Below are positions 21,001 to 27,000 of a stretch of DNA of 32,000 nucleotides, piece by piece. A program made the position numbers. Each line of letters starts with the position of its first letter. Position 1 is the stretch's first letter. Origin of the DNA: Xylella taiwanensis (GTDB taxonomy: Bacteria > Pseudomonadota > Gammaproteobacteria > Xanthomonadales > Xanthomonadaceae); the NCBI RefSeq assembly GCF_013177435.1, contig NZ_CP053627.1, forward strand, positions 300,001 through 332,000. The letters run 5' to 3'.

Positions 21001-24000
21001 TGCTGTATTCGACGACCCGCAATTAGCGAAGCTTTCAAAAGGTCCCAAGCTTAAAATCTTCTGTGAGTATGGCATAGGGGACTATCGAATCATTGCCAGC
21101 ATTGCAGGGGGTACCTTGCGCATCCTCGTCGTGTGTATGAGAAACCGCAGAGGTGTATTGGACATGATCGATGACAGCGACCAGATTGATCCGCGCCCTG
21201 CCAATCTTGGCAGCGATGGTCCGCTACGTCTGTTGGAGAACGGCAAGGAAGTCGGTGGTAGAGTGAGTTGCACGCCATTTTCATCAGATCAAGGTGTTGC
21301 GTGTTGAGCGCCTTGTCACCAACGAGGGGGCGTTCACTGGATTGGTGTCCACGGCCATCACCGATGAGCTCTTGCCAGCGAGATACTTGATGAATCAAGT
21401 AAGCCAACGATGCTTGTATCGTCGAAATTGACAACACGTGCGGTCACACTCTGCAGAAGACTCTCAAATCACATTTTCGAACACTTTTACGTGATCTTGG
21501 ACAAGACGCTTGGGTGACAGTGGCAAAGACTCAGTAGAAAGCACGCAGGATCAGCTCAGAGGAGCAGGTGCGTATGCCAAGGGACCCGACAGCTTGCCTC
21601 ATACTTAAATTTCCTGCGTTGAGCGCCCAATTTCAAGCGGGACGAGATTAAGCAGCACTCGAACCACGCGCGAGTGCTGCTATTGGGTACAGCTTAGCTA
21701 GGCGCAGCGCGAAGAGTAGTAGCACCAGGAACAGCAGCACGTCGAGAAAAAGTAACAGCAGCTTGAACAACGCTCGAAACGTGCCGCGTGCATCGTATAA
21801 ATGACCGCATGCAGATCGTGGAAGTCGTCGGTGGTGATGCGCTTACGTAGGTACCGCAGCACTTCGGTCGAATTGAGTTCGTCGTGTGCCTGGCGTGCGT
21901 ATTCCATAAAACCGGGAGCGTCATCATCATGCGTGTTGCTGTGTATTTATTTTGTAACGCATGAAGGCAAATGCGATGAGCAAAGTAACCTTTACCTTCC
22001 GGGTGGATGAGGTCTTGAAAAACGCATTCGCCACGACTGTGAAGGCCCATGACCACAGCGGTGCGCTGCTTCTCCACGACTTCATCTGCGCGGGTGTGCA
22101 GGAGCAACAGCAAGCCGCTGAGCATGACGCTTGGTTCCATCGTCAGGTGCAAACCGGCTTGGACTCGGCCAACGTTGCCTGCCTGGTGCCGGTTGCCAAG
22201 GTCGAAGTCAAGTGTGCGGTCTGTCACGTGGCTGGCTCCAAGCATCCAAATGATGGAATTGCACTGGATGCCCGAAGCGATCTATGACTACATCAAGGTT
22301 AGGTTGCCCTTGCCCTTGATGAGTTGTTTGAAAAGAAAGTTGGTTGCCTGGCCGACCACGTTGGCTGTGTCGCGTTGCCGGTACCCTAAAACTGTTAGCA
22401 CAGCAAAACTATATCTTGGTCTATAACGTGGCTAGCGACCCGATGCGCGTGTTGCGTGTCCTGCACGCGGCCAAGCAGGAAGGCCAGCATGGGGAGGGAT
22501 TGCGTATAGCTTGCTTGATTTTTCAAGCGTATCGAAAAGCACCTGTAAGGGTGGTAATCCCATTGATGTATGTTGTTTGCCCACGGCGGGTACAGCTCGA
22601 AGTCTGCGTTCGCCGGTGTCCCGTAGCACTGTGGCGTGTCTGCATAGAACAGGCTACGGCCTATGAATGTTGCATCGTCATCCTTGGTTAAATTGCTATT
22701 AGCGGTAAGTTTCCCCATTGTCTTTCTCGAAGCGTTGCATAAAAACCGGCTCTGAGTACTGGATGGTTGGATATTCCACTCTGGCGACTTTTTCACCGAT
22801 CTTGCTGAGCCTGAATAACTCTGAGACTGCCATTAATCGTTTTAATGGCTGACGCTGCTTAAGATCGGTTTTGTTCAATGCATGATTATCAAATCCTGAC
22901 AACATGGTGAGTGTGCGGTCAGTTTGATCTTGCTATTCCATGACGATCAGTTGAGCTGCAAAATCTCTTCATTGTCCCGTTGACCTAGCTACGCACTGAA
23001 TGATTCGTGTCATCGGCATGCGTGGTGTTCATCGGTGTACCTGAGACGTCTGTGGAGACCATCAATGTGGCGAACAGCGTCATCATGGCTATTGCATTGG
23101 TCATTTCTCCATCCACACATCATTGCGTTGGGCTGAAGTGTAACGCGCACCTTCCGGTGCATGAGTCTCTGTTAACATCCAGTGTGCAGCAGGATTCAAA
23201 TCTGGAAAGTACAAGCTCTCCTCCAGGTCAGAGATGATGTCCATGCAAACGACATCGATATTCATCCCATACATCACGTTGAACACTTGATCCACTATCT
23301 ACGCTGGCAAGGCCATGTATTCAATCGAGGTGACGTTCGGAGCCGGAGGGTTCTCCCGCACGTTCAGGTGCCAGGAGGTTTGCGTGATTCTGAAAGCATG
23401 AATTTTCCTGCCGAACATCAACACGCAAATGTCGTGTTTCTTGTGGATCTTTATCTTGGAAATTCAAAGGAGCAAGTATGAGTCTCTTTTCGTACCACCT
23501 ATTGATAGCTATGACGTTACTCCTTATCGTCAATCGCATCACTGGAGTGTGTATTCGTCACGAAAATAGACGAGCCCCATTCCCTGATCATCTTACCCTC
23601 GTCGGTACTGGCTAAGATCAATGGGATTTTCTTCACATAGCAAGACAGCCTCACCATGCTGATTCAACCCAAAAAAGATCTTCGACGATGGTTGCCGGAA
23701 TCCCCAGCTTAGTTCAAGGAGCAAACAGTTGCTGCGGTATGAAGATAGACATCCGAAAAAATAACAACGATCACACAGTTTCATGAAGGACACCACATAA
23801 CAAGGGCGTATGTGCCTGTGGCACGCCGTTGCTGCTGGTCATCTCGATTCAATTTTTATGATCGCTTTACATGTTCCATATCGAATGTAAGGCGAGCTTG
23901 TTTATTTGGAGTATTGCGGCTTGAAATCAATGACCTCCGCACTTGTTTTTAAGCTTTGCCGCTTCTGAAAATGATCGATAAAAAAATGACGAGGAGCACC

Positions 24001-27000
24001 ACCACCGACGCAGTCCAACTCAACTTCGGTCAGCTCACGCACTTGGCCCGAGGCAAATTCACGTGCGAGTCCTTTGGACATTGTTTTGATTTGCATTGAA
24101 AGTTTCTCAGCGTTGTCTCGGTGGGGGGCAATTTCTCATCGACCAATAAAGCCTGGTTTATCAAATGGATGATGAGCCCTATGCCAAGTTTTTGGCTTTA
24201 TTCTCCTTCTGGAAAAAAGTAATACCCCCTATTTGACTTTAATATCAATAAATTTCTCATTAGTTGCGCGATAATAATAGAAATTCATCACATGAATCGC
24301 ATAAAAACAGAAGTGTATTTTGGCCATGCTCATTAAAGGACAAATGAAAACGATGCAAAAGATATTTGTTGCCAGAACGATTCTGGCATCAACGTTGGCG
24401 ACGGTCTTGAGTGCCTGCGGCGATCCATTAGTACGCCCAGAGACACCGCCATCCAACACGACCCCAACGACCCCAACGACCCCAACGACCCCAACGACCC
24501 CAACGACCCCAACGACCCCAACTCCGGAACCATGGGTAATTTCCGAGTTCAACGCGCACCTTGATTTGACTAATACCAAAGCCGCGCATGCACTTGGTTT
24601 GACTGGTAATGGCTCCATTATTGGTGTGGTTGACTCCGGCGTGAATCGTAACCACATCGCGTTACAGGGGAAGGTGATCCGCAACAATGTCTATGTGGAT
24701 CATCAAGACCCTTCGACTCCAGACGATGTTGATGGCCATGGCACCGTAGTGGCGCAGCTGGCTGCTGGTAAGCCAGTTGAATACTGGCCCGGTGGCATCG
24801 CACCCGGCGCATCTATCTTCTCAGCGCGTGTTTTCTCGTCTGAAGCTGAAGAAGCAAAAGGAGATAAAAGTCAAGGGACAACACTCCCGAATGAGATATT
24901 GCGGATACATCGCATCAATGCCGATATGAGCGCTGCCGGAGTGCGCATCCAGAATAATTCGTGGGGCTATAAGCGCAAAGACACGGACAATGAACCAATA
25001 TGGACAGCTCCAATAGTCACTAGTTTGTATGTGGACGCTTACAGTGATTTCGTGCTTGGCAACAATGGGTTGGTGGTATTTGCCAGTGGTAACGCAAGCC
25101 AACCGCAACCGAGCCAACTTGCCAGGTTGCCGAGCTTGCCCACTGTGGAAGGCGCGCCATCGGCAGCCGACCTGGAAAGAGGGTGGTTAGTGGTCGCTGC
25201 ATTAGACAGTTTTGATCACCCGGACCAGTTGGCTTCTTACTCGAATCACTGCGGCATCGCAATGCACTATTGCCTGGCTGCGCCGGGTGATGTTGCGTTC
25301 ATTGATTCCACCATGACTACCAGTGATGTTTACAGTCATGACGGCTATAAAGGCGGTGGAGGCACCTCATTTGCAGCGCCGTTGGTCTCAGGTGCAGCGG
25401 CGTTGGTGTGGGAGGCATTTCCATACTTCAGCAACGACCTGGTACGTCAGACCCTGCTTGGGACGGCCACCGATCTCGGCGCACCGGGTGTGGACGAAGT
25501 ATTCGGCTATGGCGCCCTGAATGTGGGTAAAGCGGTGTTGGGTCCGGCCAAGTTTGACTGGGGCGATGTTCAGGTCAACTTCGATGACAGGCGTTCAACC
25601 TGGGCCAATGACATCAGCGGCAGCGGCGGCTTGATCAAGGGGGGTAACGGAACGCTGGTGCTGGCTGGCAGCAACAACCAATACACTGGGGCGACCCAGG
25701 TGCTAGGAGGGACCCTCCAGGTGTCCAGCTTGGGTGCGTCCGCGGTGAGCGTGGGTAATAGTGCGACGTTGATTGGTAGCGGTCACTTCGGCGGCGGGGT
25801 GAGCAATGCCGGGACCCTGGAGATTGGGACCGATGGACTCAAGCTCCAGGGCGATTACATCCAATCAGAGACAGGGCGCCTTGCGTTGCATGTGGGCGAT
25901 CAACTGAGCGTAGCAGGCAGTGCCATCCTCAAAGGGGGCGAACTGCAGGTGCTGGGCAAGCGTGATTATGTGAGCTTGAATACCTTCTACAGCGTGTTGC
26001 ATGCCGATGGTGGCTTGACCGGCACGTTCTCGGGGTTGACCTGGGGTCCGGCGGTGCTGCTTGGACAAGGTCAGCTTAACTACGATGGCAACAATGCTAA
26101 CGTGACGCTCCAACGCCTGGACGTCAGTGCGGCGGCCCGTGCATTGGGGATTGTCGATGATGTTGCGCAGGCTTCTGCCAATCGTGTCGAGCATGCGTTC
26201 CGTGAGCTTGACGTACAGCAGGCCCAAGGCCGTGGCCGGTTGCCCAGCACTTTTATTGCGGCGGCGGCGGCCTTGCAACAATCGTCTAGCCCGCAGGTGG
26301 CGGCGGCTTCATTGCAAAGTTTGTCCGGGCAAGGGCATGTTGCGGCGGCGGCGGCCAGCTTTGATGCCATTGATGTGGGACGGCGCAGCCTTGCCACGCG
26401 TCTGGATGAGCGTACGCCTGGTGAGCGTGTTGTGACGTGGCGTCAGGCCTTGGGTGGTCCCGGCCAAGATGGGGCCGCCGGCGGCACATTCGCCCTGTCT
26501 GGATGGTTACTTGGACACGATACACAACTGGCCTCCGGCGACATTGTTGGTTTTGCTTTTGGTCAGATCAATGCCAGTCCATCCGGGAGCGTGGCAGGGT
26601 TGCGTGGGCTGGACAGACAAGTGCAAGGACACGTGTATGTGCAGCGCACCCAGGGTCCGTTGTATGTCTTGGGCCAGCTTGGTTTTGGCAGTTTCCAGCG
26701 GCGCCTGGACCGGCATCTGCAACTGGGTGACTGGAGCGATTGGACATCCAGCCGCTACCGCGGGCAATTTTTCAGCGGCAGTGTGGAGGCTGGCTATCAC
26801 TGGCGCCAGGGTGCATGGGCCTTGACTCCGTATCTTGGCCTGGATCAAACCCAGCTGCGGACAGATGGATTTCAGGAGCAGGGGGGTGCGGGCTTTGGCT
26901 TACAGGTGCAGGCCGCTCAAGCCACGCGCAGTCAGCTACTGGCCGGTGTGCGTACGCAGTGGGGCTGGCGTGGTGTGATGCTGCGGGGCTATGGTGAGTG

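What the first reader, a model, noticed from the sequence alone, without database searches (positions are those of the whole stretch)
23902..24096. Second ColV-leader peptide with an unrecognised short hydrophilic core, divergent from autotransporter 1
The minus-strand ORF contains (GTG)RELTEVELDCVGGG. This has the same 15-residue length as the ColV leader MRTLTLNELDSVSGG, is identical to it at 10 of 15 positions, and shares RELT..E.D.V.G with the microcin gene at 19099. The predicted mature peptide after GG cleavage, APRHFFIDHFQKRQSLKTSAEVIDFKPQYSK, is short (31 aa), charged, His/Lys/Phe-rich and not Gly-rich or hydrophobic. It is unlike the membrane-active class II microcins I know, and more like a signalling or cargo peptide. 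An A7/T7 run (23980-23986) sits just after the cleavage site. Loss of one T would swap the tail for a hydrophobic ...HFLSIIFRSGKA. The gene shares a 256-bp AT-rich divergent control region with autotransporter paralog 1. This may be an undescribed double-glycine-exported peptide class, or a decayed microcin paralog.
Basis: partly seen in the sequence, partly recalled or inferred. Interest (0 to 1): 0.7.

Follow-up and report, generated by a model that had tools for sequence, protein, structure and literature searches.

The report
Xylella double-glycine peptide with hydrophilic cargo
This is a real small gene of the pear pathogen Xylella taiwanensis that encodes a 64-residue precursor with a secretion-and-cleavage leader and a short, water-soluble, non-microcin-like tail; it belongs to an unnamed family seen so far only in Xylella, and its function is untested.

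Summary
Window 23902-24096 (-) is an intact 64-codon ORF with a textbook double-glycine (GG) leader, LTEVELDCVGGG, followed by a 31-residue hydrophilic, glycine-free tail. The window is Xylella taiwanensis, where the ORF is annotated only as a hypothetical protein.

It is not an orphan. An exhaustive HMMER search found three more intact relatives:
- a second, NCBI-unannotated paralog elsewhere in X. taiwanensis;
- two paralogs in an unnamed Xylella sp. MAG, each divergent from an S8 autotransporter gene, as here.

The leader has hydrophobic residues at -4, -7, -12 and -15 and ends in GGG. The cores are 25-33 residues, hydrophilic and fast-evolving. Three of the four keep [AI]PR[EH]FF right after the cleavage site.

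In X. fastidiosa (three subspecies) the ortholog is a pseudogene. The T7 "slip site" has no support, because the frameshifted variants come from one assembly with homopolymer errors throughout.

Most likely it is a cargo of the CvaB-type PCAT exporter, which is encoded outside the window. In logic it is closer to RaxX or Gram-positive peptide pheromones than to ColV-type microcins. Export, cleavage and activity are all inferred. Moderate interest.

The parts
23902..24096 (-). Precursor peptide gene: 64 codons plus stop. Equals X. taiwanensis hypothetical protein AXI82691.1 / UniProt Z9JKH2.
   Evidence: Homologs P0024, P0044 and P0026.
23998..24096 (-). 33-residue double-glycine leader, MQIKTMSKGLAREFASGQVRELTEVELDCVGGG. 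Hydrophobic residues at -4 (V), -7 (L), -12 (L) and -15 (V).
   Evidence: The alignment of four members shows M1, K8, L10, F14, S16, R20, T23, E24, L27 and GGG invariant. Codon-position differences run pos2 < pos1 < pos3.
23998..24006 (-). GGT GGT GGT, the GGG cleavage motif. Predicted cut is after G33.
   Evidence: Invariant in all four members. Its register matches ColV ...V-S-G-G. Cleavage itself is inferred.
23905..23997 (-). 31-residue core, APRHFFIDHFQKRQSLKTSAEVIDFKPQYSK. Hydrophilic (GRAVY -0.90), net charge +3, no Gly.
   Evidence: APRHFF aligns with IPREFF and APREFF in the MAG paralogs. Frame 0 stays open longest after GGG in all four copies.
23980..23986 (-). T7 run, arising from the TTT TTT codons of the conserved Phe-Phe. 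No evidence that it acts as a phase switch.
   Evidence: The identical protein is carried on 32 X. taiwanensis contigs.
24105..24108 (-). SD-like GAGA, 8 nt before the ATG at 24096.
   Evidence: GAGA or GGAGA sits at the same place in all four members.
24136..24187 (-). Conserved upstream block TTGGCATAG-N34-GGTCGATGA. A putative promoter/operator. It marks the 5' limit of homology with the paralogous locus.
   Evidence: The composite motif is found only upstream of this gene, its X. taiwanensis paralog and the X. fastidiosa relic. No consensus sigma-70 site was called.
24097..24352 (.). AT-rich divergent intergenic region (36.7% GC) shared with S8 autotransporter 1.
   Evidence: The same divergent arrangement occurs twice in the Xylella sp. 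MAG and at the X. fastidiosa relic.
24320..27235 (+). Neighbour gene: S8 subtilase autotransporter paralog 1, with a lipoprotein-type signal and a TTP-repeat linker. Context only; no functional link has been shown.
   Evidence: Pfam Peptidase_S8 2e-46, Autotransporter 1e-32 and PATR.
23153..23780 (.). Block downstream of the gene, 73-78% identical to the region downstream of the X. taiwanensis paralog. Its indels are not multiples of 3, so it is non-coding or decayed.
   Evidence: No Pfam hit for its ORFs.

Best explanation
The ORF is a genuine gene for a ribosomal precursor peptide of the double-glycine type. It is one of a small, previously unnamed, Xylella-restricted family.

The precursor has 64 residues. 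The first 33 form a leader. An N-terminal extension, M[RQ]x[KT]xxxK[EG]LxxxFxS, is followed by the canonical PCAT-recognition helix, R-E-L-T-E-x-E-L-x-x-V-G-G-G.

Inferred mechanism: a C39-peptidase ABC transporter (PCAT) of the CvaB type, working with a CvaA-like adaptor and TolC, binds the leader. It cuts after GGG and exports the 31-residue hydrophilic peptide APRHFF...QYSK. The exporter is encoded outside this window. In X. fastidiosa it serves the CvaC-like microcins.

The cargo is not a ColV-like glycine-rich membrane peptide. It is short, charged and predicted to be only weakly helical. Its sequence diverges fast between paralogs while the leader is kept. That is the pattern of secreted interaction peptides such as small bacteriocins, pheromones and the host mimic RaxX.

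My committed reading is an unmodified, PCAT-exported extracellular peptide that acts outside the cell, on competitors or on the host/vector environment. It is dispensable enough to have been lost in X. fastidiosa.

Shown: the gene, the family, the leader anatomy, the core properties and the pseudogenisation in X. fastidiosa.
Inferred: export, cleavage site, lack of modification and extracellular role.

The confidence of 0.7 refers to 'real GG-leader precursor gene of a Xylella family that is a PCAT cargo'. Confidence in any particular extracellular activity is much lower.
For: - Intact ORF with a GG-leader motif, found twice in the window against 0.025 expected.
- phmmer over 1.84 billion representatives returns only family members: P0024 at E 1.4e-6 and P0026 at E 9.7e-4. 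A frameshifted artefact and one chance LRR hit also appear. The profile search adds nothing new.
- P0026 lies in X. taiwanensis. Its neighbour PpsA is identical to EWS78686.1.
- P0024 and P0044 lie in 'MAG TPA Xylella sp.' GCA_052692575.1, which is about 73-76% DNA-identical to both named species.
- The start codon, the SD-like GAGA/GGAGA and the 33-residue leader are conserved in all four. GGG is invariant.
- Leader substitutions are fewest at codon position 2. Leader dN/dS is 0.10-0.95, with four of six pairs at or below 0.44.
- After GGG the annotated frame stays open for 25-33 codons in all four copies, against 2-22 codons in the other frames. Per-copy chance is 0.06-0.21 and the product is 4e-4 if the copies were independent.
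- [AI]PR[EH]FF follows GGG in three of four members.
- Cores have GRAVY -0.9 to -1.45 and 0-3% Gly.
- Sub-threshold hits go only to GG-leader families: BlpC pheromone 0.029, CTB bacteriocin 0.055, bacteriocin_sig 0.1, plantaricin C 0.012, Bacteriocin_IIc 0.18.
- X. fastidiosa has cvaB (XF1220) and export machinery for its MccV-like peptides (PMC3036931; PMC10233263).
- RaxX in the sister genus Xanthomonas shows that a 60-residue precursor can be a PCAT cargo with a hydrophilic product. Its long leader ends in three glycines and has hydrophobics at -4, -7, -12 and -15 (bioRxiv 10.1101/442517).
Against: - No PCAT, adaptor, immunity gene, modifying enzyme or sensor kinase lies next to any of the four copies.
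- Core dN/dS is 0.26-0.75, measured on only 23-27 codons and near saturation, so selection on the core is not demonstrated.
- The ortholog is dead in X. fastidiosa.
- No consensus sigma-70 promoter or intrinsic terminator was found.
- There are no expression or peptide data for X. taiwanensis.
- The AlphaFold model is uninformative (pLDDT 56).
Confidence: 0.7

Rival explanations
1. Decaying relic. A leader-bearing fragment of a former bacteriocin gene stays open by chance. Only the leader is recognisably conserved, and the peptide has no function.
For: - The X. fastidiosa ortholog is a pseudogene. It has shared TAG stops at codons 8 and 16, has lost its start codon in subsp. multiplex and sandyi, and has lost the core plus about 900 bp downstream.
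- Its residual 22-codon ORF differs between subspecies by 5 nucleotide changes, all non-synonymous (read).
- The cores of intact copies are near saturation, with dN/dS up to 0.75.
- There is no adjacent immunity or exporter gene.
Against: - Four independent intact copies exist in two species. Start codon, SD and length (58-66 aa) are conserved.
- The annotated frame is the longest open frame after GGG in all four.
- PR[EH]FF is conserved beyond the cleavage site.
- No frame shows a trace of a Gly-rich microcin, and no longer homolog exists.
Confidence: 0.15
2. Phase-variable gene. Slippage at the T7 run switches the tail between the hydrophilic 31-mer and short alternative tails.
For: - The T7 run sits 5 codons after the cleavage site.
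- A T6 run and a T8 run sit at the same place in the MAG paralogs.
- A T5 variant, P0002, exists in public data.
Against: - The T5 contig (L001) is shortened at every homopolymer of 5 or more across 860 aligned bases and has no substitutions. This is the signature of long-read error.
- The same run also gives a frameshifted copy of the paralog (P0027).
- The identical protein is carried on 32 X. taiwanensis contigs.
- The T-run is simply Phe-Phe encoded as TTT TTT.
- Seven bases is short for a contingency locus.
Confidence: 0.03
3. Chance ORF in an AT-rich intergenic region, with no gene at all.
For: Short ORF, no family hit, no predicted promoter or terminator.
Against: Homologs at E 1.4e-6 and in syntenic position. 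The leader motif is enriched over shuffles. The translation start is conserved.
Confidence: 0.02

Closest known systems
RaxX of Xanthomonas oryzae (PCAT-exported, tyrosine-sulfated RiPP; 10.1101/442517, PMC6637879)
   Same: Same bacterial family. A precursor of about 60 residues. A long leader (39 aa against 33) that ends in three glycines, with hydrophobics at -4, -7, -12 and -15. A short hydrophilic product rather than a membrane peptide. Export by a CvaB-like PCAT, which a non-adjacent, non-cognate transporter can partly replace.
   Different: No sequence homology was detected. No raxST sulfotransferase or raxA/raxB lies next to it. The window peptide lacks the DY sulfation motif at the cleavage site. 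The X. taiwanensis paralog P0026 does start Y-E-D-A-Y after GGG, but nothing shows that it is sulfated. No plant-hormone-like core motif is present.
Colicin V / class IIa microcins, including the Xylella CvaC-like peptides (window 19099-19407)
   Same: The last 15 leader residues match ColV at 10/15 and the local CvaC-like leader at 9/15. Presumably the same exporter type.
   Different: The leader is 33 residues, not 15. The core is 31 residues, GRAVY -0.9 and 0% Gly, against 87-88 residues, GRAVY about +0.6 and 25-29% Gly. No cvi-like immunity gene is present. The upstream region lacks the palindromic operator seen before the cvaC genes. The only Pfam MccV hit in the window is a sub-threshold one (E 0.0012, 19.8 bits against a cut-off of 27) on the 19099 gene.
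Gram-positive GG-leader peptide pheromones (ComC/CSP, BlpC, plantaricin A)
   Same: A GG leader plus a short (17-27 aa), charged, unmodified product with hypervariable cores and a conserved leader. One family member gives a sub-threshold BlpC hit at E 0.029. Length and GRAVY are similar to CSP-1.
   Different: The organism is Gram-negative. No adjacent histidine kinase/response regulator or PCAT is present. The hydrophobic moment is lower than in CSP or PlnA in three of the four cores. No homology.
Bacteroidetocins and other small GG-leader toxins without immunity genes (cited in PMC10233263)
   Same: A Gram-negative GG-leader peptide with no neighbouring immunity gene.
   Different: No homology. 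Those are from Bacteroidales and have a demonstrated toxic activity. No activity is known here.

Membership tests
Double-glycine-leader (PCAT-substrate) peptides | N-terminal leader ending in GG/GA/GS, with hydrophobic residues at -4, -7, -12 and -15 and acidic residues in between | tested here: met
   The leader reads ...V(-15)RE L(-12)TEVE L(-7)DC V(-4)GGG. It is invariant or conservative in four homologs. The motif is enriched over shuffles.
Double-glycine-leader (PCAT-substrate) peptides | A C39-peptidase ABC transporter in the same genome that cleaves and exports it | not testable with these tools
   No PCAT lies in the window or within 10 kb of any paralog. X. fastidiosa has cvaB, XF1220 (PMC3036931).
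Double-glycine-leader (PCAT-substrate) peptides | Curated model hit (TIGR01847 bacteriocin_sig, PF10439 Bacteriocin_IIc or similar) | tested here: not met
   Only sub-threshold hits: E 0.1 and 0.18, best 0.012-0.055, all far below their cut-offs.
Class II microcins (ColV/MccV-like) | Leader of 15-19 residues directly at the N-terminus | tested here: not met
   The leader has 33 residues. The upstream ATG, the SD and the N-terminal extension are conserved. The internal GTG is ATC in one member.
Class II microcins (ColV/MccV-like) | Mature peptide of about 60-90 residues, Gly/Ala-rich and hydrophobic | tested here: not met
   31 residues, 0% Gly, GRAVY -0.90. The neighbouring CvaC-like core has 87 residues, 29% Gly and GRAVY +0.58.
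Class II microcins (ColV/MccV-like) | Dedicated immunity gene and exporter genes in the cluster | tested here: not met
   No conserved small membrane ORF or exporter lies next to any of the four copies. The conserved downstream block has frame-breaking indels.
RaxX-type sulfated RiPPs | raxST sulfotransferase with raxA/raxB adjacent, and a D-Y sulfation site next to the cleavage site | tested here: not met
   Neither feature occurs in the window. The core starts APRHFF. Sulfotransferases elsewhere in the genome could not be checked.
GG-leader peptide pheromones (ComC/BlpC type) | Cognate histidine kinase/response regulator in the locus, and autoinduction | tested here: not met
   No two-component genes occur in the window near the gene or in L005/L006. 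Autoinduction is not testable here.

The most novel reading that the evidence does not exclude
The family may be a Xylella-specific set of PCAT-exported extracellular signal or host/vector-interaction peptides, RaxX-like in logic. It may be functionally coupled to the surface S8 subtilase autotransporter with which the gene is divergently paired in three of four intact copies and in the X. fastidiosa relic. For example, the protease could trim or activate the exported peptide, as CylA, LanP and LicP do for Gram-positive GG- or lanthipeptide precursors (from general knowledge, not tested). The conserved [AI]PR[EH]FF just after the GG site could be the second processing or recognition site. Loss of the peptide in X. 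fastidiosa would then mark a real biological difference between the two pathogens.
Probability: 0.1. Interest if true: 0.75.

Novelty: new variant of a known kind. Interest (0 to 1): 0.45.

Why it matters
Double-glycine-leader peptides in Gram-negative bacteria are almost all thought of as ColV-like microcins. The one well-studied exception, RaxX in the sister genus Xanthomonas, turned out to be a plant-hormone mimic that decides the outcome of an infection.

This family pairs a long conserved leader with a 25-33-residue hydrophilic, rapidly diverging cargo. It is present in X. taiwanensis and an unnamed Xylella lineage but dead in X. fastidiosa. That makes it a cheap, testable candidate for a secreted factor that differs between quarantine pathogens. 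Possible tests are a synthetic peptide, a knockout, and supernatant mass spectrometry.

It also shows that one paralog is missing from the NCBI annotation, and that the leader-length assumptions used in microcin mining (15-19 residues) would miss such genes.

The caveat is that everything beyond the sequence anatomy is inferred.

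Tried and rejected
1. Genome-contig scan with autotransporter 1 to fetch orthologous loci. It returned only two unrelated MAGs and no Xylella. Orthologous loci were obtained instead through CvaC homologs and the look-up of encoding contigs.
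2. Metagenome and viral scans with the family profile found no relatives.
3. Pfam, NCBIfam and PDB sequence searches, with single sequences and with the family, gave nothing above threshold.
4. Rfam on the whole window gave no hits.
5. AlphaFold2 with the four-sequence alignment gave pLDDT 56 and pTM 0.24. Three weak helices were predicted (residues 8-16, 24-30, 36-50). The model was too poor for a fold search, so none was run.
6. The promoter/terminator consensus scan found nothing on the coding strand.
7. dN/dS on 23-32 codons was too noisy to be decisive.
8. The idea that the peptide shares the cvaC regulatory palindrome was rejected. The upstream regions are unrelated.
9. The idea that the conserved downstream block encodes an immunity protein was rejected. 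Its indels are not multiples of three and it has no Pfam hit.
10. Zaini et al. 2008 (PMC2293194) could not be read because it is not held.
11. Resemblance of the cores to plant peptide hormones (PSY, CLE, CEP, RGF, PSK) was checked by eye and from memory only. No convincing match was seen, so nothing is claimed.

Full report
**1. What is in the sequence**

On the minus strand, 24096 to 23902, there is an ATG-initiated ORF of 64 codons: MQIKTMSKGLAREFASGQVRELTEVELDCVGGGAPRHFFIDHFQKRQSLKTSAEVIDFKPQYSK.

- The last 15 leader residues match the ColV leader at 10/15 if the GTG is read as Met. They match the window's own CvaC-like leader (19099-19407, MRELTLAEIDNVSGA) at 9/15.
- The A7/T7 run is at 23980-23986.
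- Removing one T gives ...HFLSIIFRSGKA.
- The gene is separated from the divergent S8 autotransporter gene by 256 bp at 36.7% GC, in a window of 55.4% GC.
- A strict GG-leader pattern occurs exactly twice in the six-frame translation of the window, here and in the CvaC-like gene. Shuffles give 0.025 on average.

**2. Where the window comes from**

The ORF is 100% identical to 'hypothetical protein [Xylella taiwanensis]'. It is deposited both as a 64-residue version (AXI82691.1, UniProt Z9JKH2, 27 contigs) and as a 59-residue version (5 contigs).

The flanks confirm this. They carry rmlBACD, xanA/xanB, ETF and a DEAD helicase, then one cvaC-like gene, then two S8 autotransporters. They are collinear with X. 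fastidiosa at about 80-85% identity.

**3. The frameshift 'variants' are artefacts**

The word-index search also found P0002, with a different tail. Its contig (L001, Logan SRR11805344) is identical to the window over about 860 bases, except that every homopolymer of 5 or more is one or two bases shorter. The same run yields a frameshifted copy of the paralog described below (P0027). This is long-read homopolymer error, not phase variation.

**4. The ORF has relatives**

An exhaustive phmmer search of 1.84 billion representative proteins returned five hits.
- The ORF itself.
- The artefact P0002.
- A chance hit in an LRR protein.
- P0024 (60 aa, E 1.4e-6).
- P0026 (58 aa, E 9.7e-4).

A profile search added only P0027.

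P0026 lies on a contig whose PpsA is identical to the X. taiwanensis protein EWS78686.1. It is therefore a second X. taiwanensis paralog, called only in Logan assemblies and not in NCBI annotation.

P0024 lies in GCA_052692575.1, labelled 'MAG TPA: Xylella sp.'. This genome is about 73-76% DNA-identical to both X. taiwanensis and X. fastidiosa at this locus. That locus carries a second copy (P0044, L005:7827-8027, 66 aa). Both MAG copies are divergent from an S8 autotransporter gene, one full-length and one truncated, with a spacer of about 265-270 bp. This is the same arrangement as in the window.

JGI metagenomes and IMG/VR hold no further relatives.

**5. Anatomy from the four-member alignment**

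| Member | Sequence |
|---|---|
| Xt window | MQIKTMSKGLAREFASGQVRELTEVELDCVGGG\|APRHFFIDHFQKRQSLKTSAEVIDFKPQYSK |
| Xsp a | MRIKQINKELTDGFCSCNMREITEAKLECVGGG\|IPREFFFQLLNHSQQHQNLNTSKMAKR |
| Xsp b | MRVKQINKELKDGFSSCNIRQLTEAELEWIGGG\|APREFFCQLLNKFERDHGHENNESQQCLKKFRR |
| Xt paralog | MRTTAMTKELASEFASDQMRELTETELNSVGGG\|YEDAYKNYFDDKNPLKPMFEDYVKS |

The common start is the upstream ATG. In every copy it is preceded by GAGA or GGAGA.

The leader is 33 residues. It has hydrophobic residues at -4, -7, -12 and -15 and an invariant GGG. This is the pattern described for PCAT substrates, including RaxX, whose leader also ends in three glycines (10.1101/442517).

Within the leader, nucleotide differences are fewest at codon position 2. 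dN/dS is 0.10-0.95, and four of six pairs are at or below 0.44.

The cores are 25-33 residues, with GRAVY -0.9 to -1.45, 0-3% Gly and net charge -2 to +3. They are almost saturated with change, but three features hold.
- [AI]PR[EH]FF follows the GGG in three of the four.
- All four end in a short basic tail.
- After GGG the annotated frame is the longest open frame in every copy: 25-33 codons against 2-22. Per-copy chance is 0.06-0.21 and the joint value is 4e-4 if the copies were independent, which overstates it because they are related.

Core dN/dS is 0.26-0.75 on 23-27 codons and is not decisive.

**6. The X. fastidiosa ortholog is dead**

The homologous spot sits about 250 bp upstream of the autotransporter gene in subsp. 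pauca (L004, L008, L009, L010), multiplex (L012) and sandyi (L013, L014). It keeps the upstream block and the reading frame.

It has TAG stops at codons 8 and 16 in all three subspecies. Pauca has an additional TAA at codon 15. Multiplex and sandyi have lost the ATG.

Blastn homology to the window stops inside the leader, and about 940 bp of X. taiwanensis sequence (23051-23995) is represented by about 150 bp. A 22-codon remnant survives: M[HC]KMTE[DN]ELHC[AV]DGGSTA[RH]YCE. The five nucleotide differences between subspecies are all non-synonymous (read), which fits neutral decay.

**7. What it is not**

- It has no Pfam, NCBIfam or PDB membership. The only signals are sub-threshold hits to GG-leader families: BlpC 0.029, CTB bacteriocin 0.055, bacteriocin_sig 0.1, plantaricin C 0.012, Bacteriocin_IIc 0.18.
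- It is not a truncated CvaC. No longer homolog exists. tblastn links the two genes only through the 14-residue leader motif (E about 1.7). The upstream regions are unrelated. The cvaC genes carry a 9-bp-arm palindrome (19044-19068) that is absent here. This gene and its paralog share TTGRCATAG-N34-GGTCGRYGA.
- No exporter, immunity, modification or sensor gene lies in the window or within 10 kb of any paralog.
- The roughly 630-bp block downstream (23153-23780) is 73-78% identical to the block downstream of the paralog. Its indels are not multiples of three, so it is not a conserved immunity gene.
- Rfam finds nothing.
- The AlphaFold model is of low confidence (pLDDT 56).

**8. Most likely mechanism**

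The precursor is probably recognised through its leader by a CvaB-type PCAT encoded elsewhere, cut after GGG and exported through a CvaA/TolC-type channel. The product would be a roughly 31-residue soluble peptide.

Xylella fastidiosa has cvaB (XF1220) and export machinery for its MccV-like peptides (PMC3036931; PMC10233263). PCATs are known to accept leaders of differing length and non-cognate cargo. I could not verify the exporter in X. taiwanensis.

Several features fit an extracellular interaction peptide rather than a pore-forming microcin: a conserved leader with a hypervariable hydrophilic core, paralog turnover and lineage-specific loss. Whether it kills, signals or acts on the host or vector cannot be decided in silico.

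**9. Comparison and novelty**

It works like a PCAT cargo. The closest analogue by logic is RaxX. The closest by leader sequence is ColV/CvaC. The closest by cargo size and composition are the Gram-positive pheromones. It fails the defining features of each of those families (see the membership table).

It is best described as a new variant of a known kind: an unnamed Xylella-restricted GG-leader peptide family with an atypical long leader and a hydrophilic cargo.

**10. Verdict**

- Observation: confirmed.
- Interpretation: partly supported.
- Interest: moderate (0.45). This is a real, undescribed family with a clear experimental path, but it has few members, no functional evidence and an ortholog lost in the best-studied species.

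Noticed in passing
L006:10001-10177 (X. taiwanensis, Logan SRR16971292 contig; also L007:136-315 with errors): A second paralog of the peptide gene (P0026, 58 aa) lies in X. taiwanensis between an M4 peptidase/emfourin pair and an AraC regulator. It is called only in Logan assemblies and apparently has no NCBI annotation. Its core starts Y-E-D-A-Y and has four Tyr residues flanked by acidic residues.
   Followed up: partly
window 23153-23780 and L006:10262-11161: About 630 bp downstream of the peptide gene is 73-78% identical between the two X. taiwanensis loci. That is more conserved than the peptide core itself. It contains indels of 1, 9, 13 and about 250 bp, so it is non-coding or decayed. 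Its nature is unknown. Several perfectly conserved stretches of 19-23 nt occur, e.g. CCGCAGCAACTGTTTGCTCCTTG.
   Followed up: partly
L004:6884-6952; L012 and L013 about 11720-12010 (-): The X. fastidiosa relic keeps a 22-codon ORF, M[HC]KMTE[DN]ELHC[AV]DGG|STA[RH]YCE. It has a 15-residue GG-like leader and a 7-residue tail in three subspecies. All five differences between subspecies are non-synonymous, so it is probably neutral.
   Followed up: partly
window 19099-19407 and 19044-19068: The window holds only one intact cvaC-like microcin gene, whereas X. fastidiosa has three in tandem. Its promoter region carries a perfect 9-bp-arm palindrome, CTAATCACA-N7-TGTGATTAG. Similar palindromes appear upstream of two X. 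fastidiosa cvaC copies and may be an operator.
   Followed up: no
window 20402-20486: A perfect 7-bp tandem repeat, GGCACCA x 12, lies in a region with no convincing gene. The MAG has a different simple repeat (GIGIGI/HWHWHW ORFs) at L005 about 10700-10800.
   Followed up: no
window 24458-24522 and 28093-28603: The two S8 autotransporter paralogs differ mainly in their Pro/Thr(/Ala) linker. Paralog 1 has a 9-bp unit repeated 7 times. Paralog 2 has about 510 bp of 6/48-bp repeats, roughly 170 residues of PT/PA. This produces the extreme GC skew of -0.49 at 28-29 kb. Downstream of the linker the two genes are nearly identical.
   Followed up: no
window 20900-21307, 21961-22287, 22344-22691: Toxin-antitoxin-like small ORFs lie between the microcin gene and the peptide gene. 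The hits are weak: ParE_toxin E 0.035 and RelB antitoxin E 1e-4, below cut-off. The region 21835-23051 is only 64% identical to an unannotated stretch of X. fastidiosa.
   Followed up: no
L001, L007 (Logan SRR11805344): Assemblies of this run have systematic homopolymer shortening. This creates false frameshifted 'protein variants' (P0002, P0027) that sit in the big protein collections as separate clusters.
   Followed up: yes
L005 (GCA_052692575.1, CM127491.1): This is a 2.54-Mb 'MAG TPA Xylella sp.' genome that is only about 73-76% DNA-identical to both named Xylella species at this locus. It is apparently a third Xylella lineage. Here the autotransporter-plus-peptide unit is duplicated, and one autotransporter copy is truncated to 380 aa.
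   Followed up: partly
(genome contigs): A scan of the GTDB species-representative collection with the 971-aa autotransporter returned no Xylella locus at all. Either the exact 8-residue seed patterns missed X. fastidiosa or the source genome and its relatives are masked.
   Followed up: no
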